Positions 4,312 to 56,331 of a stretch of DNA of 64,000 bases are shown piece after piece (position 1 is the first letter of the stretch; the number at the start of each line of letters is the position of its first letter). The stretch comes from Candidatus Iainarchaeum sp. (GTDB lineage: Archaea; Iainarchaeota; Iainarchaeia; Iainarchaeales; JAGVWC01), in NCBI GenBank assembly GCA_018304465.1, contig JAGVWC010000008.1, positions 108,096-172,095 on the forward strand. Reading direction: 5' to 3'. The notes beneath the pieces are model-generated. The model had not been told where the DNA came from. It saw only the letters and a list, made by a program, of their open reading frames with translations, and did not search any database. Position numbers and translations under genes: made by a program.

Positions 4312-4791
4312 TTGAAAATGGCTCCAAAAAAGAAAACAGAAACCCAAACCAGAACCCTGACGATTTCGCTTGCCCAAGCACGACGCGCCTCGGCAAAAAA
4401 ACGCGCGAACAAAGCGATCAGCGTGATCCGAAACGACATCAAAAAACACACGCGACAAAAAATCGCCAACATCCGTCTCTCCGATGGAATCAACCGGGAA
4501 ATCTGGAGCCAATCCACGTTTAACATTCCCGCGCGCATCACCGTTTCTCTTTTGGTCGAAAAAGAAACCGTCCGCGCGTTCCTTGAAAAAACCAAGGAAA
4601 TAGACGCCTATTTGAAAACCAAAGACGCCAAGGAAAAAGCAAAGAAAAAAGAAGAAGCCAATGCCAAAGAAGAAGAGAAAAAAGAACCCGCCGAAAAAAA
4701 AGAAGAAGCGGCCAAAGAAGAGGAAAAAGAGCAAAAACTGGCGGAAAAAAAGGCCAAGGAAGACAACGCCAGGGCCGCAGAACTGAAGTAA
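4312..4791 (+). CDS. rpl31e: Ribosomal protein L31e with long K/E/A-rich C-terminal tail
   Basis: L31e core (RTLTISLAQARRASAKKRANKAISVIRNDIKKHT...IPARITVSL) followed by about 60 aa of KEKAKKKEE low-complexity. Confidence 0.75.
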   Translation: MKMAPKKKTETQTRTLTISLAQARRASAKKRANKAISVIRNDIKKHTRQKIANIRLSDGINREIWSQSTFNIPARITVSLLVEKETVRAFLEKTKEIDAYLKTKDAKEKAKKKEEANAKEEEKKEPAEKKEEAAKEEEKEQKLAEKKAKEDNARAAELK

Positions 4792-4799
4792 GGAACCCC

Positions 4800-5456
4800 A
4801 TGCGCGTCCAAAAACTATCCATTCGAGGCAGCCCCTTTGTCGGAGTGTTTCTCAAAGCAACAGACAAATTCTGCCTGGTTCCCGACGGATTGATTCCCAA
4901 AGACAAAAAAACGATTCAAAACATCCTCGGCGTCGAACCGATCGAAACCCGCATCGCGAACGCGTCCATCATCGGCGTGCTCTGCATCGCCAACCAAAAC
5001 CGCGTCTGCTTACCCAGCATGGTGGAACAAAAAGAAATCGACGCGTTGGAAAAAACCGGAATCAAAACCAGCGTGATTCCAACGGTCGAAGCCATCGGAA
5101 ACATGGTGTCGATCAACGACCATATCGGGCTCTGCGGAAACGCGTTGCGCGAAGAAACCCGCAAAACCCTTGAACGCGAACTCAACATCCCCATTGAACG
5201 CGTGACGATCGCCGGATCCGATCTCGCCGGAAGCGCAAGCATTCTGACCAACAAAGGATTCGTTTGCCACCCCAAAACACGACCCGACGAATACAAAATC
5301 CTCGAAGAAAAAACCGGTCTCAAAGGAAACCCGTCAAGCGCCAATTACGGCGACTTGTTCGTCGGAAACAGCGTGACCGCCAACAGTTTCGGCGCGTTGG
5401 TCGGAGAACACACGACCGGATACGAAATGATTGCGATTGACGAAGCACTGTCATAA
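4800..5456 (+). CDS. eif6: Translation initiation factor 6 (aIF6)
   Basis: 218 aa, pentameric-repeat pattern (GSPFVGVF...TNKGFVCHP...GNSVTANSFGALVG); conserved position after rpl31e. Confidence 0.85.
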   Translation: MRVQKLSIRGSPFVGVFLKATDKFCLVPDGLIPKDKKTIQNILGVEPIETRIANASIIGVLCIANQNRVCLPSMVEQKEIDALEKTGIKTSVIPTVEAIGNMVSINDHIGLCGNALREETRKTLERELNIPIERVTIAGSDLAGSASILTNKGFVCHPKTRPDEYKILEEKTGLKGNPSSANYGDLFVGNSVTANSFGALVGEHTTGYEMIAIDEALS

Positions 5457-12282: not shown

Positions 12283-12346
12283 GCGACCGACCAAGACCCT
12301 TTTTTTAATGCCTTCGGAGGCCAAAATCAGTACAAAAAGGATCTTT

Positions 12347-15300
12347 ATGGGCTTAGGCGACCAATTACGCGACGCAATGGAAAAACTGCGAAAAAGCACG
12401 TTTTCCGACCGCGACGAAATCAAAAGCATCGTCAAATCCATGCAACGCGCACTGATTTCAGCCGACGTACCCGTCAAACTCGTGCTCGAAGTATCCAAAA
12501 AAATCGAAGACGCCGCGTTCTCCGAACTTGCACCCGGACTCAACCGCCGCGAACACGTATTGAAAAACGCGTACGACAACCTCGCCGAAATACTCGGAGG
12601 ACAAACCAAACCCCCCCAAAACCCCAAACGCATTCTCATGGTCGGATTGTTCGGCTCCGGAAAATGCGTTCATCCTTTGACGATTGTGCCGACTGCGAAC
12701 GGGTGCGTTGAAACAATCCAAAAAATATACGAGAAAAACCCGGAAACGGAATTGACGCTCGAAGACGGATTTGTGAAAGAGTTGTCGAATCCGATCGAAG
12801 TTTTCTCGCTTAATCCACTCAACTTGAAAATGACAAGGGGAACAGTTTCACACATCTGGAAATTAAAAAAAGACAAATCCCTATACAAAGTCGCACTAGA
12901 CAACGGAAACAATCACGCAGTAATTGTCACACCGGAGCACCCGTTTTTTGTACTTGAAAACGCCCATATTAAAAAAACCAAAGCCGAGGAACTCACCGCG
13001 GGCGCATTTGTTGCGACACCAAGACAACTTCCTCTGCCAGAAAAACAAATCCCAATTAAGTACCTAGAGCAAAATCTTCCGCAGTCCTTTCAAGTGGTCT
13101 GCCCGGAACTGATAAATGAAGCCAAACAGTTTATGATCGCAAAATTTCATTCACTCACGAACGCATTTAACATTCTCGGAGAAGACTATGCGTATTGTAC
13201 ATTCACTGCAAACCTGAAGCGCGGGATATTGCGATTCTCAACTTTAAAAAAACTGAGGAATCAAGGGTTTGAGCCAAATGGAACACAGGAGATAAAGTTG
13301 AAAGAATTTGGCACGGGAGCGCGAACAATCCAGGTACCTAACCAACTAACGACCGAAATGGCGGAATTCATGGGGTATTTTTTTGCAGACGGCCATATGA
13401 GAAAGGAATATGTTGAAATTACCAACGAATCGAATGAAATACTCGATCGGATAGAAAAAATTGGAATGCGACTATTCCAGAAAAAACCGTGTCGAAAACA
13501 AGACAAGAGAAACGCTAACGTAAAACAAATCCTGTTCTGCTCAGGAGTCTTGACCAAGGCGCTTAACACGGTTTTTGGATTTCCATATTTTAAAAAAAGT
13601 GACATCATTCGCATACCCCCCATGATTTTGCAGGCGACAAAGGAAAATAAGTATGCCTTTTTGCAGGCATACTTTGACTGCGACGGCTACGTGTCAAAAA
13701 ACACTCGTCAGATAGAATTTTGCACTGCGAGTCCCCTCTTTGCTGAAGACCTGCGAATACTGCTCACAAGCCTTGAGATGCAGCCAAATTATAGCAAAAA
13801 GAAAATCAAGGACAAATATTACTACCGCGTCTGTATCAAATGCAAGGACGTGGAAACCTTCTTTCAGCGAGTAGGATCCCGAATTCCTTTCAAGCAAAAA
13901 CGCCTTGCGGGAATGTCTGAAATCGGAGTCGGCCAAACACTTGGAAAAAATGAATTGCTCCATGTCGGCCAATCCATCCGAGACGTTCGAAACCAACAGG
14001 GTGCAACCATTGGAGACATACAGCACCATGTTGGTTCCTACGGAATATACGAACAAGAAGGATTGATATCCCGCAATTCTCTTAAAAAATTCATTGAAGC
14101 GATCACGACTAAAACAAAAAACAAGAACAATCAGATACTCCAAAACACAATTCAACCGAAAAAACTGAATGAGTTAAGCACTGCGTTTCAAGAACCGCTT
14201 GGCTGGGTCAACGCCAATGTTTTTCGCCTGAAAGAACTTGGATTTGTCACATATTCCAACGGGGAAGTACAAACAACCGAACTCGGAAAGCAACTGCTTG
14301 AAAAAAACCAAAAAGACGAAGGGCTAGAACTTAAAAAACTAGAGTTGCTTGCCCATTCAGACATCACATGGATGAAAGTCAAGAAGATCGAGCTCGTTGA
14401 CAACACGGAATACGTGTACGACCTCACAGTTGATGAATACCATAACTTTGTTGCTAACCAGTTTATTGTACACAATACCACCACTTCCGGAAAACTCTGT
14501 CACTATTACCAAAAACGCGGAAAAAAAGTCGGACTGATCGCCGCGGACACGTTTCGACCCGCGGCCATGGAACAACTTGAACAAATCGCCAAAAAAATCA
14601 ACGCCACCGTCATCCTTGACAAAAACGAAACCAAACCCGAAAAAATAATCCAACAAGGATTACAACGCGAAAAAGAATTCGATTTGCTTATCTGCGATTC
14701 CGCCGGACGCAACGCGCTTGATTCCGAATTAGAACAAGAAATCAAAACCATCAACCAAACCTTCAAGCCCGACCAAGCCTGGCTCGTGCTCGGCGCGGAC
14801 CTCGGACAAATCGCCGGAACCCAAGCCAAAGCGTTTCACGACGCGGTCGGCGTCAACGGCGTGATCGTCACGCGCATGGACGGAAGCGCCAAAGGCGGCG
14901 GAACACTCGCGGCCTGCCGCCAAACCAACAGCCCCGTGTACTTTATCGGAACCGGCGAAAAAACATCCGACCTCGAAGAATTCGACGCGGTGCGATTCCT
15001 GTCCCGCATCATGGGATACGGAGACCTCCAATCGCTTTTGGAAAAAGCCCAAGAAGCCGCACAAGACACCGACATGGGACTCGAAGAACTGCTCGAACAC
15101 GACTACACCCTGGAAACGTTTTACAAACAACTCGAAGCCACCAACAAAATCGGCACCATGGACAAAATCATGGAAATGGTCGGAATGAAACAACAACTCC
15201 CAAAAGAAGCGGCGGAACAAGGACAAAAAAAACTCGAACAATTCCGGTTCATGATGCAAAGCATGACCAAAAAAGAAAAACAAAACCCCGATCTGATCAA

Positions 15301-15505
15301 TTCCAGCCGAATTCGCCGCATCGCCCGCGGAAGCGGCAACACCCAGGAAAACGTGCGCGAATTGCTCAAACAATACAAGCGAATGAAAAACGCGTTCAAA
15401 CAACTCAAAGGACTCGACGAAAAAAAACTACAACAAGGAATGGACATGAAAAAACTGCAGGAAATGTTTTCCCCGAAAAAAAAGAAAAAACTCCGTTTCC
15501 GCTAA
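12347..15505 (+). CDS. srp54: Signal recognition particle protein SRP54 interrupted by an intein (start could also be 12308)
   Basis: N domain, then G-domain P-loop split as GLFGSGK|C...VHN|TTTSGKL; downstream AADTFRPAAMEQLE, DSAGR, TRMDGSAKGG, M domain rich in Met. Extein reading frame preserved. Confidence 0.9.
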   Translation: MGLGDQLRDAMEKLRKSTFSDRDEIKSIVKSMQRALISADVPVKLVLEVSKKIEDAAFSELAPGLNRREHVLKNAYDNLAEILGGQTKPPQNPKRILMVGLFGSGKCVHPLTIVPTANGCVETIQKIYEKNPETELTLEDGFVKELSNPIEVFSLNPLNLKMTRGTVSHIWKLKKDKSLYKVALDNGNNHAVIVTPEHPFFVLENAHIKKTKAEELTAGAFVATPRQLPLPEKQIPIKYLEQNLPQSFQVVCPELINEAKQFMIAKFHSLTNAFNILGEDYAYCTFTANLKRGILRFSTLKKLRNQGFEPNGTQEIKLKEFGTGARTIQVPNQLTTEMAEFMGYFFADGHMRKEYVEITNESNEILDRIEKIGMRLFQKKPCRKQDKRNANVKQILFCSGVLTKALNTVFGFPYFKKSDIIRIPPMILQATKENKYAFLQAYFDCDGYVSKNTRQIEFCTASPLFAEDLRILLTSLEMQPNYSKKKIKDKYYYRVCIKCKDVETFFQRVGSRIPFKQKRLAGMSEIGVGQTLGKNELLHVGQSIRDVRNQQGATIGDIQHHVGSYGIYEQEGLISRNSLKKFIEAITTKTKNKNNQILQNTIQPKKLNELSTAFQEPLGWVNANVFRLKELGFVTYSNGEVQTTELGKQLLEKNQKDEGLELKKLELLAHSDITWMKVKKIELVDNTEYVYDLTVDEYHNFVANQFIVHNTTTSGKLCHYYQKRGKKVGLIAADTFRPAAMEQLEQIAKKINATVILDKNETKPEKIIQQGLQREKEFDLLICDSAGRNALDSELEQEIKTINQTFKPDQAWLVLGADLGQIAGTQAKAFHDAVGVNGVIVTRMDGSAKGGGTLAACRQTNSPVYFIGTGEKTSDLEEFDAVRFLSRIMGYGDLQSLLEKAQEAAQDTDMGLEELLEHDYTLETFYKQLEATNKIGTMDKIMEMVGMKQQLPKEAAEQGQKKLEQFRFMMQSMTKKEKQNPDLINSSRIRRIARGSGNTQENVRELLKQYKRMKNAFKQLKGLDEKKLQQGMDMKKLQEMFSPKKKKKLRFR
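12665..14476 (+). mobile_element. Intein in SRP54 P-loop (604 aa) with LAGLIDADG homing endonuclease domain
   Basis: Starts with Cys after GSGK, ends VHN before Thr+1; internal dodecapeptide motifs MGYFFADGHM and LQAYFDCDGYV. Confidence 0.85.
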
Positions 15506-29546: not shown

Positions 29547-32500
29547 ATGACAATTAAGTTCGTGAAAAAGCGAGACGGCCGCGTAGTCGCCTTTAATCAA
29601 GACACCATTACCAACGCGGTCTGGAAAGCCGCCAAAGCGGTTGGCGGAAAAGACAAATCACTGGCGGTCGAATTATCCAGAAAAGTCGTTCACGAACTCG
29701 AAAAAAAATTCCCCGAAAAACACGTTCCCACCGTGGAAGAAGTCCAGGACGCCGTTGAAAAAGTACTGATTGAACAAGGCCACGCGCGAACCGCGAAAGC
29801 CTACATCATTTACCGCCAGCAACACGCCGAAATCCGGCGCGAAAAAGCCCTGGTGCTTGACAAACAAGAAACCGACGAAGTCGACAAACGATTCGACTTA
29901 AACGCGTTACGCGTCTTAAAAGCGCGTTACCTGCGCAAAGACGCCGCGGGAAAAACCATCGAAACCCCAAAAGAACTCTTCACCCGCGTCGCGGTACACG
30001 TACTGATCCCCGAATTGCTCTACGATCCCCGCGTCTTTGACAAAGAAGCGACCCAAAAAACCCACCCCGTGGAGCCGTTTGACAACGTCGAAAACGAATA
30101 CAAATTATCCATTGGAAAATACCAACTCAACCAATACCATCTTGAAGCCCTAAAACGCGTGTACGATAAGTTTTCCCGCCAAGGCAAAATGAAAATGCCG
30201 TGGGGACGATTCTTAGAAATGCTCAAAAACGGAGAATTCGACCAACACGAAACCAGCGGAGACGAATTCTACAGCCTCATGGTGTACAAAAAATTCATGC
30301 CCAATACCCCTGCGATCGCCAATTTCGGAGCGGTCCTTGGAATGGGCAGCGCCTGTTTTGTTATGGATGTCCGCGACAATATCGAAGGCATCATGGACAC
30401 CCTCAAAAACGCCACCATCGTATTCAAATCCGGCGGCGGCGTCGGATACAATTTCTCGAAACTCCGACCCGAAGGCGATTTCGTTTCCACCACCACCGGC
30501 GCGGCCAGCGGCCCCATCTCGTTTATGGGACTGTTCGACAAAATGACCGAAGTCATCAAACAAGGCGGAATCCGCCGCGGCGCCAACATGGGAATTCTCA
30601 ACTGCCTTGCAGGAGATACCGAGATTTCAACCATTGAAGGACGCAAAAAAATCAAAGAACTGGTTGGAACACAACCCCACCTGTACTGCCTAAATGATAC
30701 CAATGAAGTGCGGATCCGGCAAGCGAACCGTGTCATCCACTCCGGCCAAAAAAAACTGGTTCGAATCACCTTCGACGACGATACCCGCATTGATTGCACG
30801 CCCGATCATCGCATCATGCGCTCGAACGGCCAGTATACACACGCCCAAGACCTCCAGCCCCTTGACAGCGTCATGGCGTTCCATAAGAAAATACTCAACG
30901 ACCGCTACTTTATCGGTTCCACTATGAGCCCACTTTCCCCCGAGCACGTCATCGCCACCGAAACCAACAGCAAAGTACTGATCGAGCAGACCGGCCAAAC
31001 ACGATTGTCCAACGACCTGTGCGTCCACCACAAGGACAACAACCCCCTCAATAACCACCCGAATAACCTGCAAGTGCTTACCATTTCAGAACATGCCAAA
31101 ATACACTCCGATGTCCTGATCGAAAACCAAAAAAGAATCGCGATTTCACGGAAAGGAAAAACGATCGAACAGGTTTATGGCAGCGAAAAAGCGGATGCAT
31201 GGAAACAAAAAATGAGCCAAGCACGACGAAACAAAAAACCTTGGAACGCCGGCTCCGACACAGAAGTCTACAAAGCCCATTACAAAAACGGATTCAAGAA
31301 CCAATACGAATACGCCAACGCCAACCACAAAGTGGTCAAAGTCGAACCACTGGAGGGCATTCACGACATCTACGACATTATCATGGACGATTACCACAAC
31401 TTCGTCGCGAACGGCGTCTTTGTCCACAACTCAAACCACCCGGACATCGAAAAATTCATCACCGCCAAAGAAGGCAACAAACAACTCACCAACTTCAATA
31501 TCTCCGTGCTCATGATGCCGGACTTCTGGGAATACTACAACAAAAACGAACCCTACCCCCTGATCAATCCCCGCGACGGAGAAGTCGTCCGAACCGTGAA
31601 CCCCCGCATGCTCTTTGACATGATTGTCTACCAAGCATGGGAAAGCGCGGAACCCGGCGTGATCTTCTACGACAAAGTCAACGAATACAACCCGTTCTAC
31701 GAACACCTCGGACCCATTGTGACCACGAATCCCTGCGTGACTGGAGACACGCGCGTATCCACCGCAAAAGGATTGGAACGCATCGACCAACTTGCACCCG
31801 GCCTAATTACTGTGGATTCGCGTGTAAACGCGCTTTCAAACAAAAGCGGCTCGAAATCGCTCCAACTTGGAACCCAGCAAGGAACCGCAATTCAGGTCAT
31901 TAAAACTGGAACCAAACCCGTGTTCCGAGTGGAAACCACCAGTGGATTTGAAATCAAAGCAACAGCAGATCACAAGATACTGACCCCCCACGGATGGAAA
32001 GCAGTTGAGCAACTGACCGCTGGAAACGAAATACTGATCCAAAGCGGGGCAGGAAAATTCAATTCAGATTCCGCATTACCTTTTATTGTGGAAAATACCC
32101 CCGTCGGAAAAAACGGAAAAAAGTACCGGAATAACCTTCCCGCAAAATGGAGCTACGATCTCGGCCTCGTTATGGGCTGGATGCTCGGCGACGGATGGCT
32201 CAATGATCAAGCGAACCAAGTGGGGCTCGTATTTTCAAAACCGGACTATGAAGCAAAAGAACAGCTCAAACCTATTTTTGAGCATTATTGTAACCGATCC
32301 ATAAAGCTCACCAACAGAGATCAAAGTGCAGTTCAGATCCGAAGCAACAGCAAGTATGTTACAGAGTACTTCTTCAAACTCGGACTCACTTCCGTCGATA
32401 AGGAAAAAGAAGTTCCAAGCACGATTTACACCGCAACCGAAGAGGCAGTCAGAGGATTCCTCAAAGGATTATTTTCTTCGGATGGAACTATTGCGCACCA

Positions 32501-34148
32501 AAAAGAGAGCAGAAACTATGTACGACTAAATTCCAGTTCACTTACATTACTCAAAGGAGCGCAACGATTGCTTCTCAATCTTGGAATCAAAAGTACGATT
32601 TATGATCGCTCAACCGAACCAAAAACATTCAAATACATCACGGCAAAAAACCAAACTAAGCAATATCAAACCAGTGGCGAAAATTATGAGCTAAATATCA
32701 GCAAAGAAAATTTGCCACGCTTTTTAGACAAAATCGGTTTCATTCAAAGCCGACACACCCAGACGGCAGCAAAAATACAACAACACGAATTTTACACTGA
32801 ATATTTTGTTGAAAAAATAAAAACCATCGAGGCTGCCGGCATCGAAGATGTCTACGATCTTACGGAACCGACCACCCATTCATTTATCGGAAACGGAATA
32901 CTGCTACATAATTGCGGCGAAGTATTGTTGTATCCGAACGAAAGCTGTAACCTTGGAAGCGTCAATGTCTGGACGTTTTTCAAAGAAGACGAAGACGGAA
33001 CCCAATACTTTGACTGGGATGACCTCAAAAAAACCGTGCAAACCGCAAGCAAGTTTCTCGACAACGTCATTGACGTGAACAAGTTTCCATTAAAAGCCAT
33101 CGAAGACATGACCGACGCCACGCGCAAAATCGGACTCGGAGTCATGGGCGTCGCCGACTTGTTTTACGAACTCAAACTCCCCTACAATTCCCCCGAAGCG
33201 CGCGATGCCGCCGAAAAACTCATGGAATTCATCAACTACCACAGCAAAGCCGTTTCCATTGACCTGGCCAAAACCCGCGGACCCATGCCCTACAACGACA
33301 AAAGCTTTTACCTCGAAGGCCGGCTCGCGATTTCAGGACCCGAAACCAAAGAAAAACTCCACTTCAACTGGGACGACATCCGCGAAGGATACAAAAAATT
33401 CGGTTCCCGCAACGGCTACAACACCGTCATCGCGCCCACCGGAAGCATCTCCATGATCGCGGGCTGCAGCTCCGGAATCGAACCCGTGTACTCACTCGTA
33501 TTCGAAAAAAACGTCAAAGTCGGAAGCTTCTACTACGTCGACCCCGTCTTTGAACGCATCATGAAACAAGAAGGACTCCACGACAGCAAACTCATGGAAG
33601 ACGTATCCGAAAACGGCGGAAGCATCCAACACATCCCGTATTTGACCAACGAACAAAAACACGTTTTCGTCACTGCCATGGACATCACCCCTGAAGACCA
33701 CATCCGAATGCTCGCCGCGTTCCAACGCTGGTGCGACTCCAGCATTTCGAAAACCAACAACTTTCCGGCCGACGCGACCGTCGAAGACATGCGCGCCAGT
33801 TACCTGCTCGCATACCAATTGGGATGCAAAGACGTTACGGTTTTCCGCGACAGCTCCATCAAAGCCCAAGTGCTGAACGCACCCAAGAAAAAAACCGTGG
33901 ACACGAGCTCGCTCAAACTCGAGGCCAGCAAAGCCCAAACCATGCAAGCGATTTCGCCTTCACCTGCCCCCATAACCCAAACCGCCAAACCCGCGGAAAC
34001 AAAACAAGTCACGGGCCGAAGCACTTCGACAGTCCAGCAACCCAAAAGCAAATACGAAATCACGAACTGCCCCAACTGCAACTCCGTGACCCAAATCAAA
34101 GAAGGCTGCGTCAACTGCCCCGAATGCGGCTGGGGAATGTGCAACTAA
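29547..34148 (+). CDS. nrdJ: Ribonucleoside-diphosphate/triphosphate reductase, class II (adenosylcobalamin-dependent), with ATP cone, two inteins and C-terminal zinc ribbon
   Basis: ATP cone KFVKKRDGRVVAFNQDTI; catalytic exteins ...GANMGILN|SNHPDIEKF... and ...TTNP|CGEVLLYPNESCNLGS; C-terminal CPNCNS...CVNCPECG. Confidence 0.85.
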   Translation: MTIKFVKKRDGRVVAFNQDTITNAVWKAAKAVGGKDKSLAVELSRKVVHELEKKFPEKHVPTVEEVQDAVEKVLIEQGHARTAKAYIIYRQQHAEIRREKALVLDKQETDEVDKRFDLNALRVLKARYLRKDAAGKTIETPKELFTRVAVHVLIPELLYDPRVFDKEATQKTHPVEPFDNVENEYKLSIGKYQLNQYHLEALKRVYDKFSRQGKMKMPWGRFLEMLKNGEFDQHETSGDEFYSLMVYKKFMPNTPAIANFGAVLGMGSACFVMDVRDNIEGIMDTLKNATIVFKSGGGVGYNFSKLRPEGDFVSTTTGAASGPISFMGLFDKMTEVIKQGGIRRGANMGILNCLAGDTEISTIEGRKKIKELVGTQPHLYCLNDTNEVRIRQANRVIHSGQKKLVRITFDDDTRIDCTPDHRIMRSNGQYTHAQDLQPLDSVMAFHKKILNDRYFIGSTMSPLSPEHVIATETNSKVLIEQTGQTRLSNDLCVHHKDNNPLNNHPNNLQVLTISEHAKIHSDVLIENQKRIAISRKGKTIEQVYGSEKADAWKQKMSQARRNKKPWNAGSDTEVYKAHYKNGFKNQYEYANANHKVVKVEPLEGIHDIYDIIMDDYHNFVANGVFVHNSNHPDIEKFITAKEGNKQLTNFNISVLMMPDFWEYYNKNEPYPLINPRDGEVVRTVNPRMLFDMIVYQAWESAEPGVIFYDKVNEYNPFYEHLGPIVTTNPCVTGDTRVSTAKGLERIDQLAPGLITVDSRVNALSNKSGSKSLQLGTQQGTAIQVIKTGTKPVFRVETTSGFEIKATADHKILTPHGWKAVEQLTAGNEILIQSGAGKFNSDSALPFIVENTPVGKNGKKYRNNLPAKWSYDLGLVMGWMLGDGWLNDQANQVGLVFSKPDYEAKEQLKPIFEHYCNRSIKLTNRDQSAVQIRSNSKYVTEYFFKLGLTSVDKEKEVPSTIYTATEEAVRGFLKGLFSSDGTIAHQKESRNYVRLNSSSLTLLKGAQRLLLNLGIKSTIYDRSTEPKTFKYITAKNQTKQYQTSGENYELNISKENLPRFLDKIGFIQSRHTQTAAKIQQHEFYTEYFVEKIKTIEAAGIEDVYDLTEPTTHSFIGNGILLHNCGEVLLYPNESCNLGSVNVWTFFKEDEDGTQYFDWDDLKKTVQTASKFLDNVIDVNKFPLKAIEDMTDATRKIGLGVMGVADLFYELKLPYNSPEARDAAEKLMEFINYHSKAVSIDLAKTRGPMPYNDKSFYLEGRLAISGPETKEKLHFNWDDIREGYKKFGSRNGYNTVIAPTGSISMIAGCSSGIEPVYSLVFEKNVKVGSFYYVDPVFERIMKQEGLHDSKLMEDVSENGGSIQHIPYLTNEQKHVFVTAMDITPEDHIRMLAAFQRWCDSSISKTNNFPADATVEDMRASYLLAYQLGCKDVTVFRDSSIKAQVLNAPKKKTVDTSSLKLEASKAQTMQAISPSPAPITQTAKPAETKQVTGRSTSTVQQPKSKYEITNCPNCNSVTQIKEGCVNCPECGWGMCN
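30603..31430 (+). mobile_element. Intein 1 in RNR (276 aa) carrying HNH endonuclease motif
   Basis: Begins CLAGDTEI, ends VFVHN before Ser+1; internal HHKDNNPLNNHPNNLQVLTISEHAKIH HNH box. Confidence 0.8.
31734..32912 (+). mobile_element. Intein 2 in RNR (393 aa) with LAGLIDADG homing endonuclease domain
   Basis: Begins CVTGDTRV, ends ILLHN before Cys+1 (CGEV); motifs MGWMLGDGWL and LKGLFSSDGTI. Confidence 0.85.
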
Positions 34149-34792: not shown

Positions 34793-34842
34793 GAAGAAAT
34801 CTGAATCCCATTCTTTTTAAGAATTCCCCCGCAAAATTATTT

Positions 34843-35112
34843 GGGCCAGGTGAGGGGGCTAGCGGTCCCCTGTACCCGAAATCCGCTTCATGCGGGAACC
34901 CACGCTGTCAAAACGTGAATTGGGCTTGTACCAAAGCCATTGTTTGGACGACGACCCTTTGTCCTAAAAGGTCGATGGCAATTGCCAACCCGCCAGGTTC
35001 GGAAGAAAGCAACGGTACCAATCGTCTTCGATGCTTTTAGACCGCAGAGGCGAGGAAAAACAATGGACTAAACTTTGGGACAAAACCAGTGCGCTATTTG
35101 GCAGCGGCCCAC
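34843..35112 (+). ncRNA. ffs: Signal recognition particle RNA (7S/SRP RNA)
   Basis: Helix 8 signature GCCAGGUUCGGAAGAAAGCAACGGUACC at 34990-35018; 5' GGGCC and 3' GGCCC ends can pair; GC-rich, ORF-free; located between two protein genes. Confidence 0.7.
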
Positions 35113-35119
35113 TTGAAAA

Positions 35120-46082: not shown

Positions 46083-46200
46083 TGAGGCTGGGGAGATTTG
46101 AACTCCCGACACATCGGTCTTCAGCCGATTGCTCTCCTGAGTCTGCAACGAAAAACTGTATAACAGATTTCTCAATTACAACGGACTGAGCTACAGCCTC
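46083..46200 (-). tRNA. tRNA-Phe (GAA) with about 45-nt intron in the D-loop
   Basis: Reverse strand: GAGGCTG TA GCTC AGT[..45 nt..]CAGGA GAGC A ATCGG CTGAAGA CCGAT GTGTC GGGAG TTCAAAT CTCCC CAGCCTC A. All arms present except the D-loop is interrupted. Confidence 0.55.
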
Positions 46201-46232
46201 TCAATAAGTAAAGAAATTGCGTTAAAAAGGTT

Positions 46233-47015
46233 TTAAAAGCGTTGAGTCCTAAGACTCAGTTTTTCCGCAGTTTTGGCTAAACGCCACTGTTTGACAGGGT
46301 GCAAAAATAAGTGATTTTCCGCCAAAAAAACAATATCAGAAAAACGTTCCACTTGAATATACGCCGAAACGTTATTTGGATCCAAATAAGGACCGTTCAT
46401 TTTCAGTCCGAAAGCCGATTCGAAAAGACTTTTCACTTCACGAATAAACGGGATACATTTCATTCGAATTTTGACGCGAGGGGCAGATTTAAATCCACCT
46501 TCTACGGCACGTGTGTCTCCCTCCGCGTCAAATAAACCCCGCAAAAACCACCGTTGTAATTCCACTGGAGCGTTCCAGACCACAGCAGGGGCATGTAATG
46601 AATTCGTCTTTGAACCGCACGGAAGTTCAAAAAGAACAGTCAAAAATAAATACACCCGCTTACTTGTCGGGTTGATGTACAGCGTTCGTTCCCCTTTACT
46701 TAAACGCTCATAGCGAATAGGGGGACAATCGCCAAACAAATCAGAATACAACGATTGAATAAACATCATCTGAGACTCAAATTCGTCCGCGATGATCATC
46801 TTGTACTCCCGACGGCGGGAAACCAAATATGAACGCTCGACATTCTTTAATCCACCGTCACCGAAGAAATAACCAGCAAAATACGCGAGTTTTGGCGAAA
46901 GCTCCGTTGGGCAGTTTGCAAATTCATGACTTGGTAAAGAATCAATCGGACTTGCGGGACAGAAAGGATCAACCAATTCGGATTCCGAAATAAAGCCATA
47001 AGCTGTTCGAAGCAT
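46233..47015 (-). CDS. Free-standing LAGLIDADG homing endonuclease
   Basis: Two dodecapeptide motifs LAYFAGYFFGDGG and LRGLFDAEGD; no intein splice boxes at the termini. Confidence 0.75.
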   Translation of the reverse strand: MLRTAYGFISESELVDPFCPASPIDSLPSHEFANCPTELSPKLAYFAGYFFGDGGLKNVERSYLVSRRREYKMIIADEFESQMMFIQSLYSDLFGDCPPIRYERLSKGERTLYINPTSKRVYLFLTVLFELPCGSKTNSLHAPAVVWNAPVELQRWFLRGLFDAEGDTRAVEGGFKSAPRVKIRMKCIPFIREVKSLFESAFGLKMNGPYLDPNNVSAYIQVERFSDIVFLAENHLFLHPVKQWRLAKTAEKLSLRTQRF

Positions 47016-47082
47016 TTAGAAAAAAGCGAGAACAAAAAGAATAACCTTTCGAGGCGCCTGATTGCCGGTGAAAAAAAGAATG

Positions 47083-47168
47083 CGGGCTCAGTGGGGATCG
47101 AACCCACGATCACTCGGTTGCTCCAAGAACCTAAGAGCCGAGTGCTTTACCGGCTAAGCTATGAGCCC
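47083..47168 (-). tRNA. tRNA-Lys (CTT) with 13-nt anticodon-loop intron
   Basis: GGGCTCA TA GCTT AGCCGGTA AAGC A CTCGG CTCTTA[GGTTCTTGGAGCA]A CCGAG TGATC GTGGG TTCGATC CCCAC TGAGCCC G; anticodon assignment depends on exact intron boundaries. Confidence 0.55.
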
Positions 47169-47173
47169 AAATG

Positions 47174-47245
47174 CGAGACCGGTGGGACTCGAACCCACAG
47201 CCCACGGGTTAAAAGCCCGTTGCGCTACCATTGCGCCACGATCCC
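47174..47245 (-). tRNA. tRNA-Lys (TTT)
   Basis: GGGATCG TG GCGC AATGGTA GCGC A ACGGG CTTTTAA CCCGT GGGCT GTGGG TTCGAGT CCCAC CGGTCTC G; acceptor has two G-U pairs. Confidence 0.75.
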
Positions 47246-47336: not shown

Positions 47337-47980
47337 ATGCCTGTTTTTGGAAAAGGACGGTTAGGCCGGCAACCCCGCAAGTACCTCAATCAAAGCATCG
47401 AACGCATTCCAATAACTTTTGGAAAACGAAAATATCGCCCCGGAGCCAATAAAGTCTGGCCCAAAAAACTCAATTCCAGAAGCCTGGATCGCATCGAACA
47501 AAAAATGGGCCTTGATATCACCGGTTTTTTGACCAAAAAAGCAAAAGAACAAGACGAACCGCTTGCGGTTCTGGACTGGGGCTGCGGCGCCGGAACCGCA
47601 ATCGAACAATTGGGAAAAAAACTCGGCGAACGGGTCCACGCGTTCGGTTGCTCCAAAGACAGTTTTCCGTTTGGCGCAGAAAAAAACATTGCACGCTTTT
47701 CCTTGTCACCACAGAAGATTCCCTTCGGGCCGCGCGAAACGACTCATTCGATTTGATTTACAGCTATTTCGGGTTCTACTATCACCGCGACACCGTGTGT
47801 CTTGCCGCATGGATTTCGAAACTAAAAACCGGCGGAAAACTCGTGTTTAATCCCGGGATTGGGCCCTTGGCGTGGGCAACGGAAGAAGTAAAAAAAAGAC
47901 ACCCCAGTATTCGAATTGAACGCATCGCTAGCCCAAGCGGAGAAAAAACACTTGCGGTAGTAATCACCCGCACCCGATAA
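47337..47980 (+). pseudogene. Class I SAM-dependent methyltransferase disrupted by a frameshift at an A7 tract
   Basis: Motif I VLDWGCGAGTAIEQL in ORF 47337-47756; motifs II/III FDLIYSYF...LKTGGKLVF in ORF 47648-47980; frames switch near GCAGAAAAAAACATT at about 47690. Confidence 0.55.
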
Positions 47981-54222: not shown

Positions 54223-56331
54223 TCATAGGCTATCAAAAGGACTCTTCACTTTTTTCAGTTCTTCCGTTCGCACCGTGGTGTAAATCTGGGTGGTGTTCAG
54301 ATTTGCATGACCCAACAATTCTTGGATCTTTCGAATACTTTCTCCCGCTTCCAGCAAATGCGTGGCGTATGAATTGTGTACTACAAAACCATCCGCAAAC
54401 AGATTTTCTGTTCCAGCCACGGTAAAATCATACACTGGGACGGTATCCCGCACTGGCAGGATCTTGGTTACTTCCATCCATTTGTAGTTCTCTCCCAATA
54501 ATGAACGAATCGCATTGCGTTCTTCCAAAAAATCCGGTTCTTTTTCGATTTCGTGCAAAATTTTCGCGACCGTCTCTCGGACCGGAATGATTTTTCCCGT
54601 GTAGCGCTTCAAATGCTTAATTCCTTGCCGGGTTTGCAAACGATAAATAAATCCCCGCTGTTGCAGCAGTTTTGGGTACATCTTTTTCAAAATCAAATGT
54701 GCCGGGATCCACTCTCCCACGGAATCGTTTTCAATTCGAAGTTTTTTTTGGGTTGGGATCAGCAACTCAAACAACACTTGGTCCGGACGGCGAAGAATGA
54801 ATAATTCAAAAATTGTGTGCGAAATAATTCGGCCTTGAGGCAACTTCACTTTTCGATCTCGCTGATGAAAATACGAATTGATTCCAAGTCGCAGCAAAAG
54901 AACCTGCACATCCTTTAGCAATTCTTTACTAGTAGAAAAAAAGCGCGGAACCCCCTCGTTCCCGTCTGCGTCATACAAACCTGCCAGAAATTCGCATACT
55001 TCTTCAGTGCTTGCCGAGAATAACTCCATTGGTATCCGCTTCGTAGGCGCCCGCCTGTCCATATCCAGTAACTGACAGGTGTGCACCAAATCAACAGAAT
55101 AATACGCCAACTCAAACGAGTTTCTTCCATGCGTCGGGTGAATAAACGGTCGCTTTCCAAACTGTTGCTCCAAAAGCGATTGGTAAAACTGCAAAAACGA
55201 AAGGTTCTTATCACAAATCACAACCCCACGCCGACTATCGCTTATGGTTCCGTCTCCTAACGCATATCCCACAAAACGCCACCAGGCCGGAGATGCACGC
55301 CGGGTTTCCGCAATCGTAACTTTTTTGGGGCCCAGCACAAAATCGCCGGGCTTTAAATCTTTGGCACATGCTTCCCCAAGGCCATACACAGTCGCTACAA
55401 AAAAACGATGCTCTGGCGTGCATGTTAACAAATAACCACCCGCATTGACTTCGAGAAGCCCTTCTGCATACTGCATGAACGCACCCACCAACGGGGCATT
55501 GATCACGTGTTGTGTGTTCCATTCAAAGCTTCGAACCAAGGTGCCTTTTCCGGAAAACAAAGCCTGCGCGGAAACAATTCCATTCGAAGTAAAAATCCGA
55601 GTATTCGCTTCTACACAGTGACGCATGCTGTGCGGCGTCACTTCTTTTTGAATTCCCGCCTTGGCCGCCGCTTTGCGAATAATACGCTGAATGGTATCCA
55701 CCGAAATGGATGTCCCGGTAGTTTTTTTGGAGAACACAAACTCGCTTGAAACTTTTTTTCGCTTCAAATAGCGCTTCAGATCCGACACCCAATTCTTGGA
55801 CAAGATAATGATACGGTCCTTGTTTCCTTTGCCGCCTTTCACTCGGCCGATAAACTCGCTTAACTCGAGGTCCGCGACCTTGAGTTTGACGGCTTCGCTT
55901 ACGCGCACGCCGGACGAATACAAAAATTCGACAATCAAACGATTACGCCCCTTCTTGGTCGCTTTGATCAACGCTTTTACTTCGGCCTTGGTGAGAACGG
56001 TCGGGAGCTTTTTGGCTTTTTTCATGGCGCGCACGTCTTCCATGATTTTTAATTTTAAAAAATTTCCAAAAAAGAATTTGAGCGCCGAGTGCGCCAATGC
56101 CAAACTCGAATTCGAAATATTTTCTTTCTCCTTGCGGTTCGCGATGTATCCCACGATATCCGCTTTTTCGGTTTCTTCCACGGGCTTTTGGAGCGACTTC
56201 AAAAAATCCGAAACCAAAAACAGATATGTTTTGATCGTCTGCTTCGAGTACCCCGTGACGACCAGTTCCTGGCGAAAACGCGTCAGCATTTCCTGGTTAT
56301 GCGGCAAAATTTCCGAATCCGTTTCGCTCAT
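54223..56331 (-). CDS. xerA: XerA/XerC-like tyrosine recombinase interrupted by an intein
   Basis: N-terminal core-binding domain; catalytic exteins ...TPHSMRH|SYATHLLEAGESIRKIQELLGHANLNTTQIYT (R-H-R-H-Y boxes) flank a 415-aa insertion. Confidence 0.8.
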   Translation of the reverse strand: MSETDSEILPHNQEMLTRFRQELVVTGYSKQTIKTYLFLVSDFLKSLQKPVEETEKADIVGYIANRKEKENISNSSLALAHSALKFFFGNFLKLKIMEDVRAMKKAKKLPTVLTKAEVKALIKATKKGRNRLIVEFLYSSGVRVSEAVKLKVADLELSEFIGRVKGGKGNKDRIIILSKNWVSDLKRYLKRKKVSSEFVFSKKTTGTSISVDTIQRIIRKAAAKAGIQKEVTPHSMRHCVEANTRIFTSNGIVSAQALFSGKGTLVRSFEWNTQHVINAPLVGAFMQYAEGLLEVNAGGYLLTCTPEHRFFVATVYGLGEACAKDLKPGDFVLGPKKVTIAETRRASPAWWRFVGYALGDGTISDSRRGVVICDKNLSFLQFYQSLLEQQFGKRPFIHPTHGRNSFELAYYSVDLVHTCQLLDMDRRAPTKRIPMELFSASTEEVCEFLAGLYDADGNEGVPRFFSTSKELLKDVQVLLLRLGINSYFHQRDRKVKLPQGRIISHTIFELFILRRPDQVLFELLIPTQKKLRIENDSVGEWIPAHLILKKMYPKLLQQRGFIYRLQTRQGIKHLKRYTGKIIPVRETVAKILHEIEKEPDFLEERNAIRSLLGENYKWMEVTKILPVRDTVPVYDFTVAGTENLFADGFVVHNSYATHLLEAGESIRKIQELLGHANLNTTQIYTTVRTEELKKVKSPFDSL
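54373..55617 (-). mobile_element. Intein in tyrosine recombinase (415 aa) with LAGLIDADG domain
   Basis: Starts CVEANTRI after MRH, ends VVHN before Ser+1; motifs FVGYALGDGTIS and LAGLYDADGNEG. Confidence 0.8.

What the first reader, a model, noticed from the sequence alone, without database searches (positions are those of the whole stretch)
46083..47245. tRNA cluster with a D-loop intron in tRNA-Phe, a short anticodon-loop intron in tRNA-Lys, and a free-standing LAGLIDADG endonuclease between them
tRNA-Phe(GAA) folds perfectly except that the D-loop is interrupted by about 45 nt between GCUCAGU and CAGGAGAGC. This is a non-canonical intron position of the kind reported in some archaea. The neighbouring tRNA-Lys(CTT) has a 13-nt insert at the 37/38 position. 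Between them lies a free-standing LAGLIDADG homing endonuclease ORF with no intein boxes. Its location next to intron-bearing tRNA genes is unusual and may mark a mobile intron-associated element or a former rRNA/tRNA intron ORF.
Basis: partly seen in the sequence, partly recalled or inferred. Interest (0 to 1): 0.6.

Follow-up and report, generated by a model that had tools for sequence, protein, structure and literature searches.

The report
Homing endonuclease gene paired with intron-split tRNA-Phe
In this DPANN archaeal chromosome a free-standing LAGLIDADG homing-endonuclease gene sits directly upstream of a tRNA-Phe gene whose D-loop is split by a spliceable intron. The same pairing recurs across several archaeal phyla, which suggests that odd-position tRNA introns and homing endonucleases travel, and perhaps protect each other, as a unit.

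Summary
All three observations are real. On the minus strand lie four features:
- tRNA-Lys(UUU), 47245..47173.
- tRNA-Lys(CUU), 47168..47083, with a 13-nt intron at 37/38 in a relaxed bulge-helix-loop motif.
- An intact 260-aa double-motif LAGLIDADG ORF, 47015..46233. It has no intein, no group I intron and no enclosing BHB.
- tRNA-Phe(GAA), 46200..46083, with a 44-nt D-loop intron in a strict hBHBh' motif.

The spliced D-arm equals the intronless gene of the closest relative, L084.

The new finding is comparative. In all 19 distinct loci carrying this endonuclease family (Micrarchaeota, Iainarchaeota, Woesearchaeota, Nanoarchaeota), the ORF ends -10 to +44 nt from tRNA-Phe(GAA). In the 15 loci found through the protein, 13 have the intron at the same D-loop site.

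Related genomes carry other LAGLIDADG families directly 5' of tRNA-Lys(CUU), tRNA-Phe and tRNAi-Met, mostly with their own intron positions. The endonuclease-free relative L084 has all four tRNAs intronless. Empty sites and decayed copies exist.

Best reading, at moderate confidence: a free-standing homing endonuclease targets the uninterrupted tRNA gene, and the intron gives immunity and is co-inherited ("collaborative homing").

Caveats: about 70% of D-loop-intron alleles lack the endonuclease, its divergence tracks SerRS, and cleavage is untested.

The parts
47173..47245 (-). tRNA-Lys(UUU), intronless
   Evidence: ARAGORN. Rfam tRNA 70.7 bits. 73/73 identical to L084's copy.
47083..47168 (-). 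tRNA-Lys(CUU) gene. Exon 1 is 47168..47132, the 13-nt intron is 47131..47119 at position 37/38, and exon 2 is 47118..47083.
   Evidence: Rfam tRNA 61.6 bits with an insertion in the anticodon loop. Relaxed h-B-H-loop motif, and the spliced form is called tRNA-Lys(CUU).
47071..47077 (-). T7 run just after tRNA-Lys(CUU); putative archaeal terminator (inferred)
   Evidence: Read from the sequence. Not tested.
46233..47015 (-). Free-standing monomeric double-motif LAGLIDADG homing endonuclease gene (260 aa). Motif 1 is LAYFAGYFFGDGG and motif 2 is WFLRGLFDAEGD.
   Evidence: Pfam LAGLIDADG_3 only. Family alignment A1 keeps both catalytic acids: D53 is invariant and position 165 is D or E. AF2 pLDDT 94. 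Foldseek hits to I-DmoI, I-Tsp061I and PI-PfuI. The >=90%-identity cluster contains MBS3061299.1, 'Candidatus Diapherotrites archaeon'.
46222..46228 (-). TTTTTAA box 22-28 nt upstream of tRNA-Phe; putative archaeal TATA box of the tRNA (inferred). In relatives the equivalent TTTAAAA box lies inside the 3' end of the endonuclease ORF.
   Evidence: Sequence reading. The conserved C-terminal 'LK' codons in A1 coincide with this box. Not tested.
46083..46200 (-). tRNA-Phe(GAA) gene. Exon 1 is 46200..46182 (19 nt), the 44-nt D-loop intron is 46181..46138 between G18 and G19, and exon 2 is 46137..46083.
   Evidence: BHB scan. The spliced form is called tRNA-Phe(GAA). The spliced D-arm is identical to intronless L084.
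46137..46190 (-). hBHBh' splicing motif: h = CUC 46190..46188 paired with GAG 46136..46134; H = AGUC 46187..46184 paired with GACU 46143..46140; bulges CGU 46183..46181 and CAG 46139..46137; h' is a 6-bp stem inside the intron.
   Evidence: Conservation and compensatory change across 52 alleles.

Best explanation
**Shown.**
- The segment is a tRNA gene cluster of a DPANN archaeon. An 882-bp stretch holding a free-standing LAGLIDADG homing-endonuclease gene separates tRNA-Lys(CUU) from tRNA-Phe, where the closest relative has 35 nt. Whether it was gained here or lost there is not resolved.
- The adjacent tRNA-Phe gene is split in its D-loop by a 44-nt ORF-less intron with a strict bulge-helix-bulge motif.
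- tRNA-Lys(CUU) has a 13-nt anticodon-loop intron.
- This endonuclease family always sits directly 5' of tRNA-Phe.

**Inferred mechanism.**
- The enzyme recognises and cuts the uninterrupted tRNA-Phe gene around the D-loop, the intron-insertion site, in genomes that lack the element.
- Break repair from an element-bearing copy then copies both the endonuclease gene (its cassette ends about 45 nt upstream of the tRNA) and the intron (19 nt into the tRNA).
- In the carrier, the intron splits the recognition site and so prevents self-cleavage.
- The host splicing endonuclease removes the intron from the pre-tRNA, so the insertion costs nothing.
- After fixation the endonuclease gene can decay or be lost, leaving the intron behind.

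For: **The enzyme looks active.**
- Both LAGLIDADG catalytic acids and 43 columns are invariant across 25 homologues of 42-68% identity.
- The model is confident and has an I-DmoI-like fold.

**Linkage to tRNA-Phe is absolute.**
- In 19 distinct loci from four DPANN lineages, tRNA-Phe(GAA) starts -10 to +44 nt from the ORF stop.
- In 6 of them the stop codon is the tRNA's U8-A9-G10.

**The linked tRNA is interrupted.**
- Of 15 loci found through the protein, 13 carry an intron at the same D-loop site.
- One (L024) carries it 4 nt upstream, plus three more introns.
- The one exception (L001) has an altered D-arm, GCTTAGCTGGGAAAGC.

**A naive allele exists.** L084 (SerRS 82% identical, collinear region) has tRNA-Lys(UUU), tRNA-Lys(CUU) and tRNA-Phe back to back. 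All are intronless, there is no endonuclease, and the D-arm equals the window's spliced product.

**Empty-site pairs.**
- L046 has the gene; L075 has an identical tRNA-Lys and identical tRNA-Phe exons separated by only a 107-nt spacer.
- L057/L078 versus L074, and L016 versus L056/L071, show the same contrast.

**The pattern generalises.**
- At least four further LAGLIDADG_3 families sit directly 5' of one tRNA species, and most go with a recurring intron position.
- tRNA-Lys(CUU): 30/31 plus 37/38. tRNA-Phe: 30/31 plus 37/38. tRNA-Phe: 9/10 plus 37/38. tRNAi-Met: 4/5 plus the anticodon loop.
- tRNAi-Met is intronless in all five loci without the adjacent ORF and has two introns in both loci with it.
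- In 8 SerRS-syntenic loci, endonuclease-adjacent tRNAs are 11/11 intron-bearing against 8/21 for the rest (Fisher p = 6e-4, not corrected for phylogeny).

**Decay stages exist.** L056 has truncated and frameshifted copies, and L087 a frameshifted copy.

**A sharp divergence boundary.** Window and L084 share a 100% identical tRNA-Lys(UUU). The tRNA-Lys(CUU) 4 nt downstream is strongly diverged and resembles endonuclease-linked alleles.

**Precedents.** Collaborative homing (PMC3984707) and T4 SegB, a free-standing endonuclease in a tRNA cluster that recognises a tRNA T-arm motif (PMC2330249).
Against: - No cleavage data exist; the target site is inferred only from the intron position.
- The D-loop intron is far more widespread than the endonuclease. 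Of 49 metagenomic alleles with it, about 23 have at least 1 kb of upstream sequence and no endonuclease gene. These include lineages with quite different tRNA-Phe sequences.
- Endonuclease pairwise identity tracks SerRS identity in the same loci, for example 72.5 vs 71.4% and 51.5 vs 58.0%. There is therefore no sign of recent transfer between lineages, and conservation is unusually strong for a selfish gene.
- L001 has an intact endonuclease but no D-loop intron.
- L056 pairs a decayed endonuclease of the '30/31' family with a tRNA-Phe that has only the D-loop intron.
- The association statistics are small and phylogenetically non-independent.
- tRNAs in these genomes are intron-rich in general; tRNA-Lys(UUU), for example, has introns in 4 of 8 loci with no endonuclease next to it.
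Confidence: 0.5

Rival explanations
1. A selfish free-standing homing endonuclease homes to, or is parked in, the 5' flank of tRNA-Phe, with its target somewhere in the flank or tRNA. The tRNA introns are unrelated to it: they are simply common in these DPANN lineages and older than the endonuclease.
For: - About 70% of D-loop-intron alleles with enough upstream sequence lack the gene.
- The same intron site occurs in clearly different archaeal tRNA-Phe lineages.
- L001 has the gene without the D-loop intron.
- L056 shows a family/position mismatch.
- tRNA-Lys(UUU) acquires introns without any adjacent ORF.
Against: - 11/11 endonuclease-adjacent tRNAs have introns against 8/21 non-adjacent ones.
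- Most of the endonuclease families go with their own recurring intron position.
- tRNAi-Met has introns only where the ORF is present, 2/2 against 0/5.
- The endonuclease-free relative L084 has no introns in any of the four tRNAs.
Confidence: 0.25
2. A domesticated LAGLIDADG protein with a host function tied to tRNA-Phe. It could be a maturase-like helper for the unusual pre-tRNA, a regulator of the tRNA gene, or a nuclease that cuts foreign DNA carrying uninterrupted tRNA-Phe sequence.
For: - Divergence tracks SerRS.
- 43 invariant columns.
- Synteny is conserved from Micrarchaeota to Iainarchaeota.
- The ORF overlaps the tRNA promoter and 5' end.
- bI3 and I-AniI maturases are among the structural neighbours.
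Against: - The closest relative L084 lacks the gene, and so do several sister alleles.
- Pseudogenised copies of sister families exist.
- The family is tiny and patchy: 25 clusters at 90% identity, and 27 representatives at E<1e-30 among 1.8 billion proteins.
- Several sequence-unrelated LAGLIDADG families show the same arrangement, which fits repeated invasion better than repeated domestication.
- The catalytic acids needed for DNA cutting are retained, whereas maturases often lose them (established knowledge of LAGLIDADG maturases).
Confidence: 0.15
3. The ORF is a relic of an intron-encoded endonuclease from a long tRNA or rRNA BHB intron or a group I intron. It was stranded next to the tRNA by rearrangement.
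For: - Its nearest solved structures include archaeal rRNA-intron enzymes I-DmoI and I-Tsp061I.
- LAGLIDADG-bearing group I introns occur in DPANN rRNA genes (PMC6125680).
Against: - BHB motifs that would enclose the ORF are no better than shuffled controls: 21 against 17 expected, best helix sum 8 against a mean of 8.3.
- Rfam finds no group I or II intron in the window.
- The N-terminus and start codon are conserved across the family.
- The same free-standing layout is found in all 19 loci.
Confidence: 0.05

Closest known systems
Collaborative homing: free-standing endonuclease plus ORF-less group I intron (cyanophage S-PM2 F-CphI/psbA; Aeromonas phage case), as reviewed in PMC3984707 and PMC6083498
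   Same: The endonuclease gene lies outside but next to the interrupted gene. The intron has no ORF. The proposed target is the intron-insertion site, and the intron gives immunity and is co-converted.
   Different: Here the intron is a protein-spliced BHB tRNA intron, not a ribozyme. The enzyme is LAGLIDADG. The host is a cellular archaeon, not a phage. Cleavage has not been tested.
Phage T4 SegB (GIY-YIG), a free-standing homing endonuclease inside a tRNA gene cluster (PMC2330249)
   Same: A free-standing endonuclease sits between tRNA genes. Its recognition site includes a conserved tRNA structural motif, and it drives co-inheritance of neighbouring tRNA genes.
   Different: It belongs to a different nuclease family. 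The phage tRNAs have no introns, and self-protection is not by an intron.
Archaeal rRNA-intron LAGLIDADG endonucleases I-DmoI, I-Tsp061I and I-PorI
   Same: Monomeric two-motif LAGLIDADG fold (TM up to 0.79). They are associated with BHB-spliced introns, and their target is the intron-insertion site.
   Different: Those ORFs lie inside the intron of an rRNA gene. Here the ORF lies outside a 44-nt tRNA intron. Sequence similarity is marginal (E = 0.016).
Non-canonical-position BHB tRNA introns of Thermoproteales/Crenarchaeota and ARMAN (reviews PMC4090602, PMC4390854; EndA types PMC5829648, PMC3488258)
   Same: Strict hBHBh' motif away from position 37/38. Multiple introns per tRNA occur in relatives.
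   Different: No endonuclease partnership is mentioned in the 2014 review (the word 'homing' does not occur in PMC4090602). The explanation that review discusses for tRNA-gene introns is protection against viral integration.

Membership tests
Archaeal BHB (hBHBh') intron - tRNA-Phe D-loop insert | Two 3-nt bulges on opposite strands separated by a 4-bp helix | tested here: met
   AGUC/GACU with bulges CGU and CAG. It is the MFE fold of the local segment.
Archaeal BHB (hBHBh') intron - tRNA-Phe D-loop insert | Flanking helices h and h' of at least 2 bp | tested here: met
   h = 3 bp, h' = 6 bp.
Archaeal BHB (hBHBh') intron - tRNA-Phe D-loop insert | Removal at the bulges restores a canonical cloverleaf | tested here: met
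   The spliced sequence is called tRNA-Phe(GAA), 74 nt. Its D-arm is identical to the intronless L084 gene.
Archaeal BHB (hBHBh') intron - tRNA-Phe D-loop insert | Motif conserved, with compensatory change, in homologues | tested here: met
   H is fully paired in 44/52 alleles and h in 52/52. The window has AGUC/GACU against AGCC/GGCU elsewhere.
Archaeal BHB (hBHBh') intron - tRNA-Phe D-loop insert | Excised in vivo by the tRNA splicing endonuclease | not testable with these tools
   Needs RNA-seq or RT-PCR, or an EndA assay.
Relaxed BHB (bulge-helix-loop) intron - tRNA-Lys(CUU) | Position 37/38, an h and H helix with two bulges, and h' replaced by a loop | tested here: met
   h = CUCGG/CCGAG, H = CUCU/GGAG, bulges UAG and CAA, 6-nt loop. 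The spliced form is called tRNA-Lys(CUU). Rfam 61.6 bits.
LAGLIDADG homing endonuclease (monomeric, two-motif) | Two LAGLIDADG motifs, each ending in a catalytic Asp or Glu | tested here: met
   GYFFGDGG (D53) and GLFDAEGD (E165). D53 is invariant and position 165 is D or E in all 25 family members.
LAGLIDADG homing endonuclease (monomeric, two-motif) | Profile match above the curated threshold | tested here: met
   PF14528 LAGLIDADG_3, 29.6 bits against a cutoff of 22.5.
LAGLIDADG homing endonuclease (monomeric, two-motif) | Tandem alpha-beta-beta-alpha-beta-beta-alpha fold | tested here: met
   AF2 pLDDT 94.2, pTM 0.92. Foldseek probability 1.00 to PI-PfuI, I-Tsp061I and I-DmoI.
LAGLIDADG homing endonuclease (monomeric, two-motif) | Site-specific double-strand cleavage of a long (about 14-40 bp) target | not testable with these tools
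   Needs an in vitro cleavage assay.
Intron- or intein-encoded endonuclease | The ORF lies inside a self-splicing or BHB intron, or is fused in frame to Hint/intein splicing blocks | tested here: not met
   No Intein_splicing or Hint domain. No group I or II intron. No enclosing BHB above chance. The family has its own conserved Met start.
Free-standing homing endonuclease / collaborative homing | The gene is present or absent between otherwise collinear close relatives, next to a conserved gene | tested here: met
   Window vs L084. L046 vs L075, L057 vs L074, L016 vs L056/L071.
Free-standing homing endonuclease / collaborative homing | The neighbouring gene carries an ORF-less intron at a conserved site in endonuclease-bearing genomes | tested here: met
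   13/15 protein-first loci have the intron at the same D-loop site, one has it 4 nt away, and one exception has an altered D-arm.
Free-standing homing endonuclease / collaborative homing | The endonuclease cuts the intronless allele at or near the intron-insertion site, and the intron blocks cutting | not testable with these tools
   This is the decisive biochemical test; see next steps.
Free-standing homing endonuclease / collaborative homing | Evidence of horizontal spread (gene tree discordant with host tree) | tested here: inconclusive
   Endonuclease identity tracks SerRS identity in 5 loci, so no discordance is seen. The sample is small, and the sharp tRNA-Lys(UUU)/(CUU) divergence boundary hints at conversion.

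The most novel reading that the evidence does not exclude
Odd-position and multiple BHB introns in archaeal tRNA genes are, at least in DPANN lineages, the footprints and immunity partners of free-standing LAGLIDADG homing endonucleases that target uninterrupted tRNA genes. Each endonuclease family has a cognate tRNA and intron site. Multi-intron tRNAs, such as the four-intron tRNA-Phe in L024, would then record serial invasions. A further possibility is that the enzymes double as a defence that cuts foreign DNA carrying uninterrupted tRNA sequence, such as viral tRNAs or att sites.
Probability: 0.35. Interest if true: 0.85.

Novelty: new variant of a known kind. Interest (0 to 1): 0.7.

Why it matters
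Why archaeal tRNA genes carry introns at scattered, non-canonical positions is an old open question. One explanation discussed in the literature read here is protection from viral integration (PMC4090602).

A recurrent, family-specific pairing of free-standing homing endonuclease genes with intron-split tRNA genes offers a concrete DNA-level mechanism for gain, spread and retention of these introns, and it can be tested.

It would extend 'collaborative homing' from phage group I introns to protein-spliced introns in cellular archaea. It also predicts a set of natural meganucleases whose roughly 20-bp targets are conserved tRNA gene segments.

I found no description of this association in the searchable literature. 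That library is incomplete.

Tried and rejected
1. **Default ARAGORN and ARAGORN -i.** Both miss tRNA-Phe, and -i miscalls tRNA-Lys(CUU) as Ala(AGC) with a 33/34 intron. I rejected that call: there is no G3:U70, and the spliced anticodon arm matches the intronless tRNA-Lys(CUU) of L001.
It also gives a foldable tRNA. I rejected it in favour of AGUCCG|GGA, which obeys the BHB cleavage rule and matches L084 exactly.
3. **ORF as intron-encoded.** A long-range BHB search around the ORF was no better than shuffles. There is no group I or II intron and no intein.
4. **Recent horizontal transfer.** I compared endonuclease and SerRS identities and found no discordance.
5. **Decayed copies of the window's family upstream of endonuclease-less D-loop-intron alleles.** None were found by tblastn at E<0.1. 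One truncated copy of a different family turned up in L056.
6. **Automated multi-intron tRNA solver.** It is noisy for tRNAs with 2-4 introns, so those identities were settled by eye from the sequences.
The viral-contig test scan was only a format check and was not analysed.
8. **The 155-aa ORF upstream of L088 tRNA-Phe.** It has no similarity to any LAGLIDADG family.
Full report
**Setting**

The window is archaeal chromosome: an archaeal SRP RNA lies at 34839-35114, and SerRS, TFIIE-alpha, Trm56 and YbaK-like editing genes flank the finding. A protein at least 90% identical to the ORF is deposited as 'Candidatus Diapherotrites archaeon' MBS3061299.1. Homologues are labelled Micrarchaeota, Diapherotrites or Iainarchaeum. 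This is therefore a DPANN archaeon.

**Checking the observation**

All features are on the minus strand.
- tRNA-Lys(UUU), 47245..47173, is standard.
- tRNA-Lys(CUU), 47168..47083, scores 61.6 bits with the Rfam tRNA model, with an insertion in the anticodon loop.
  - The 13-nt insert sits at 37/38 in a relaxed motif: anticodon stem CUCGG/CCGAG, 4-bp helix CUCU/GGAG, bulges UA|G and CA|A, and a 6-nt loop instead of the distal helix.
  - Removing it gives tRNA-Lys(CUU).
  - ARAGORN's alternative, Ala(AGC), is rejected.
- tRNA-Phe(GAA), 46200..46083, is invisible to ARAGORN, and Rfam sees only its acceptor and T-arm.
  - A BHB scan gives one solution that restores a tRNA: h 3 bp, H AGUC/GACU, bulges CG|U and CA|G, h' 6 bp, intron 44 nt.
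  - The product is called tRNA-Phe(GAA) with D-loop AGUCCGGGA.
  - The closest relative found through SerRS synteny (L084, 82% SerRS identity) has an intronless tRNA-Phe whose D-arm and 5' anticodon-arm stretch is identical to the predicted spliced product.
  - Across 52 alleles with an intron at this site the BHB is conserved, and the window shows a compensatory AGUC/GACU variant.
- The ORF, 47015..46233, is a 260-aa two-motif LAGLIDADG protein.
  - It has only a LAGLIDADG_3 Pfam hit.
  - The AlphaFold2 model is confident (pLDDT 94).
  - Foldseek matches PI-PfuI, I-Tsp061I and I-DmoI.
  - It is not in an intein, not in a group I or II intron, and not inside a long BHB.

**What the comparison shows**

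The protein family is small: 25 clusters at 90% identity, and 27 representatives at E<1e-30 among 1.8 billion proteins. It is well conserved, with 43 invariant columns and both catalytic acids kept.

I retrieved its loci three ways:
- by exact protein;
- by a scan of species-representative genomes;
- as a by-product of a metagenome scan for the intron.

In all 19 distinct loci, tRNA-Phe(GAA) begins -10 to +44 nt from the ORF stop. In six of them the stop codon is the tRNA's U8-A9-G10.

The conserved 'LK' near the C-terminus is the tRNA's TTTAAAA promoter box read as codons. The ORF therefore abuts or runs through the tRNA promoter.

Among the 15 loci found through the protein:
- 13 have an intron at exactly the window's D-loop site;
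- L024 has one 4 nt upstream plus three more introns;
- L001 has none there, but its D-arm sequence is altered.

**Presence/absence**

- L084 has tRNA-Lys(UUU), tRNA-Lys(CUU) and tRNA-Phe back to back, with no introns and no ORF. The window has 882 bp between tRNA-Lys(CUU) and tRNA-Phe where L084 has 35 nt.
- L046 (ORF present) and L075 (107-nt spacer) share an identical tRNA-Lys(CUU) and identical tRNA-Phe exons.
- Similar pairs are L057/L078 vs L074 and L016 vs L056/L071.
- Window and L084 share a 100% identical tRNA-Lys(UUU). The tRNA-Lys(CUU) 4 nt away is heavily diverged and resembles endonuclease-linked alleles, which looks like a recombination boundary.

**Generalisation**

In other SerRS-syntenic Micrarchaeota loci (L085-L089), further LAGLIDADG_3 ORFs sit directly 5' of tRNAs that carry introns. 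They share at most about 30% identity with the window family, or are not detectably similar to it, and they group into families.

| Family | Loci | tRNA | Intron positions |
|---|---|---|---|
| 1 | L085, L086, L089 | tRNA-Lys(CUU) | 30/31 and 37/38 |
| 2 | L085, L087 | tRNA-Phe | 30/31 and 37/38 |
| 3 | L089 | tRNA-Phe | 9/10 and 37/38 |
| 4 | L086, L089 | initiator tRNA-Met | 4/5 and the anticodon loop |

L087 also has a frameshifted, sequence-distinct LAGLIDADG copy 5' of its tRNA-Lys(CUU), which carries the same 30/31 and 37/38 introns.

Initiator tRNA-Met is intronless in the five loci without the ORF. Over 32 tRNA genes in 8 loci, ORF-adjacent tRNAs are 11/11 intron-bearing against 8/21 for the others (p = 6e-4, not corrected for phylogeny).

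Decayed copies occur in L056 (truncated and frameshifted) and L087 (frameshifted).

**Interpretation**

The anatomy matches a free-standing homing endonuclease whose target lies in the adjacent conserved gene. The intron would interrupt the target in the carrier. This is 'collaborative homing' as described for phage endonucleases and ORF-less group I introns (PMC3984707). T4 SegB is a precedent for an endonuclease that lives in a tRNA cluster and recognises a tRNA motif (PMC2330249).

Shown:
- the introns and their BHB motifs;
- the endonuclease fold and catalytic residues;
- the invariant linkage to tRNA-Phe;
- the recurrent intron position;
- the presence/absence and decay states.

Inferred:
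- that the enzyme is active;
- that its site spans the intron-insertion point;
- that the intron confers immunity;
- that endonuclease and intron are co-converted.

**Counter-evidence**

- The D-loop intron is much commoner than the endonuclease. Only about 10 of 33 alleles with adequate upstream sequence have it.
- This fits loss of the endonuclease after fixation, but it equally fits an intron that is independent of it.
- Endonuclease identity tracks SerRS identity, so there is no sign of recent lateral spread, and the gene is as conserved as a housekeeping enzyme.
- L001 and L056 are imperfect fits.

I therefore put the full mechanism at about 0.5. The main rival, with the intron unrelated to the endonuclease, is at 0.25. 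Domestication is at 0.15, and a stranded intron ORF at 0.05.

**Novelty**

Each part is a known kind: BHB introns at non-canonical sites, LAGLIDADG enzymes and free-standing endonucleases. The specific, recurrent pairing of free-standing LAGLIDADG genes with intron-split tRNA genes was not found in the literature I could search. The standard 2014 review of tRNA introns does not mention homing at all.

I rate it a new variant of a known kind. It is of clear interest because it makes the origin of odd-position tRNA introns experimentally testable.

Noticed in passing
window 12308-15505 (+), 29547-34148 (+), 54223-56331 (-): Three host genes carry inteins with LAGLIDADG_3 domains: SRP54, ribonucleotide reductase (apparently two inteins, one with an HNH motif), and a tyrosine recombinase (Xer/integrase-like). 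The genome is heavily colonised by homing-endonuclease elements.
   Followed up: partly
window 47337-47756 and 47648-47980 (+): Two overlapping ORFs look like one SAM-dependent methyltransferase (motif LDWGCGAGT) broken by a frameshift. Neither half has a Pfam hit.
   Followed up: no
window 47173-47245 vs 47083-47168; L084 8118-8267: tRNA-Lys(UUU) is 73/73 identical between the window and L084. The tRNA-Lys(CUU) 4 nt downstream differs at many positions and resembles endonuclease-linked alleles of L085 and L090. This is a sharp boundary suggesting allele replacement.
   Followed up: partly
L085 7648-9398; L086 1595-2301 and 5164-6460; L087 8606-10882; L089 5020-5815 and 8702-10803: At least four further LAGLIDADG_3 families lie directly 5' of intron-bearing tRNA-Lys(CUU), tRNA-Phe and initiator tRNA-Met. 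Intron positions include 4/5 (acceptor stem), 9/10 and 30/31.
   Followed up: partly
L024 ~4630-4820: A Woesearchaeota tRNA-Phe(GAA) has four BHB introns: at 15/16, 37/38, the variable region and the T-loop. It is directly overlapped by the endonuclease ORF's stop codon.
   Followed up: partly
L056 (oriented) 334-796 and 2440-2901: A frameshifted LAGLIDADG remnant lies upstream of an intronless tRNA-Lys(CUU). An N-terminally truncated LAGLIDADG (second motif only) lies upstream of a tRNA-Phe with a D-loop intron. These are decay stages of tRNA-linked endonuclease genes.
   Followed up: partly
L036, L039, L043, L049, L054, L073, L076, L080: tRNA-Phe alleles with a GCCGAGG... acceptor have the same D-loop intron site plus further introns, and no endonuclease upstream; two of them (L039, L073) show an encoded CCA end. 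The site is used well beyond the lineages that carry the endonuclease.
   Followed up: no
19 loci of the endonuclease family, e.g. L002 4900-4909, L019, L024, L025, L044, L057: In 6 of 19 loci the endonuclease ORF ends with the tRNA's own U8-A9-G10 as its TAG stop. The tRNA's TTTAAAA promoter box lies within the ORF's last codons. If the two are co-transcribed, 5' processing of the tRNA would remove the stop codon.
   Followed up: no
window 34839-35114 (+): Archaeal SRP RNA, 118 bits. It confirms the domain of the source organism.
   Followed up: no
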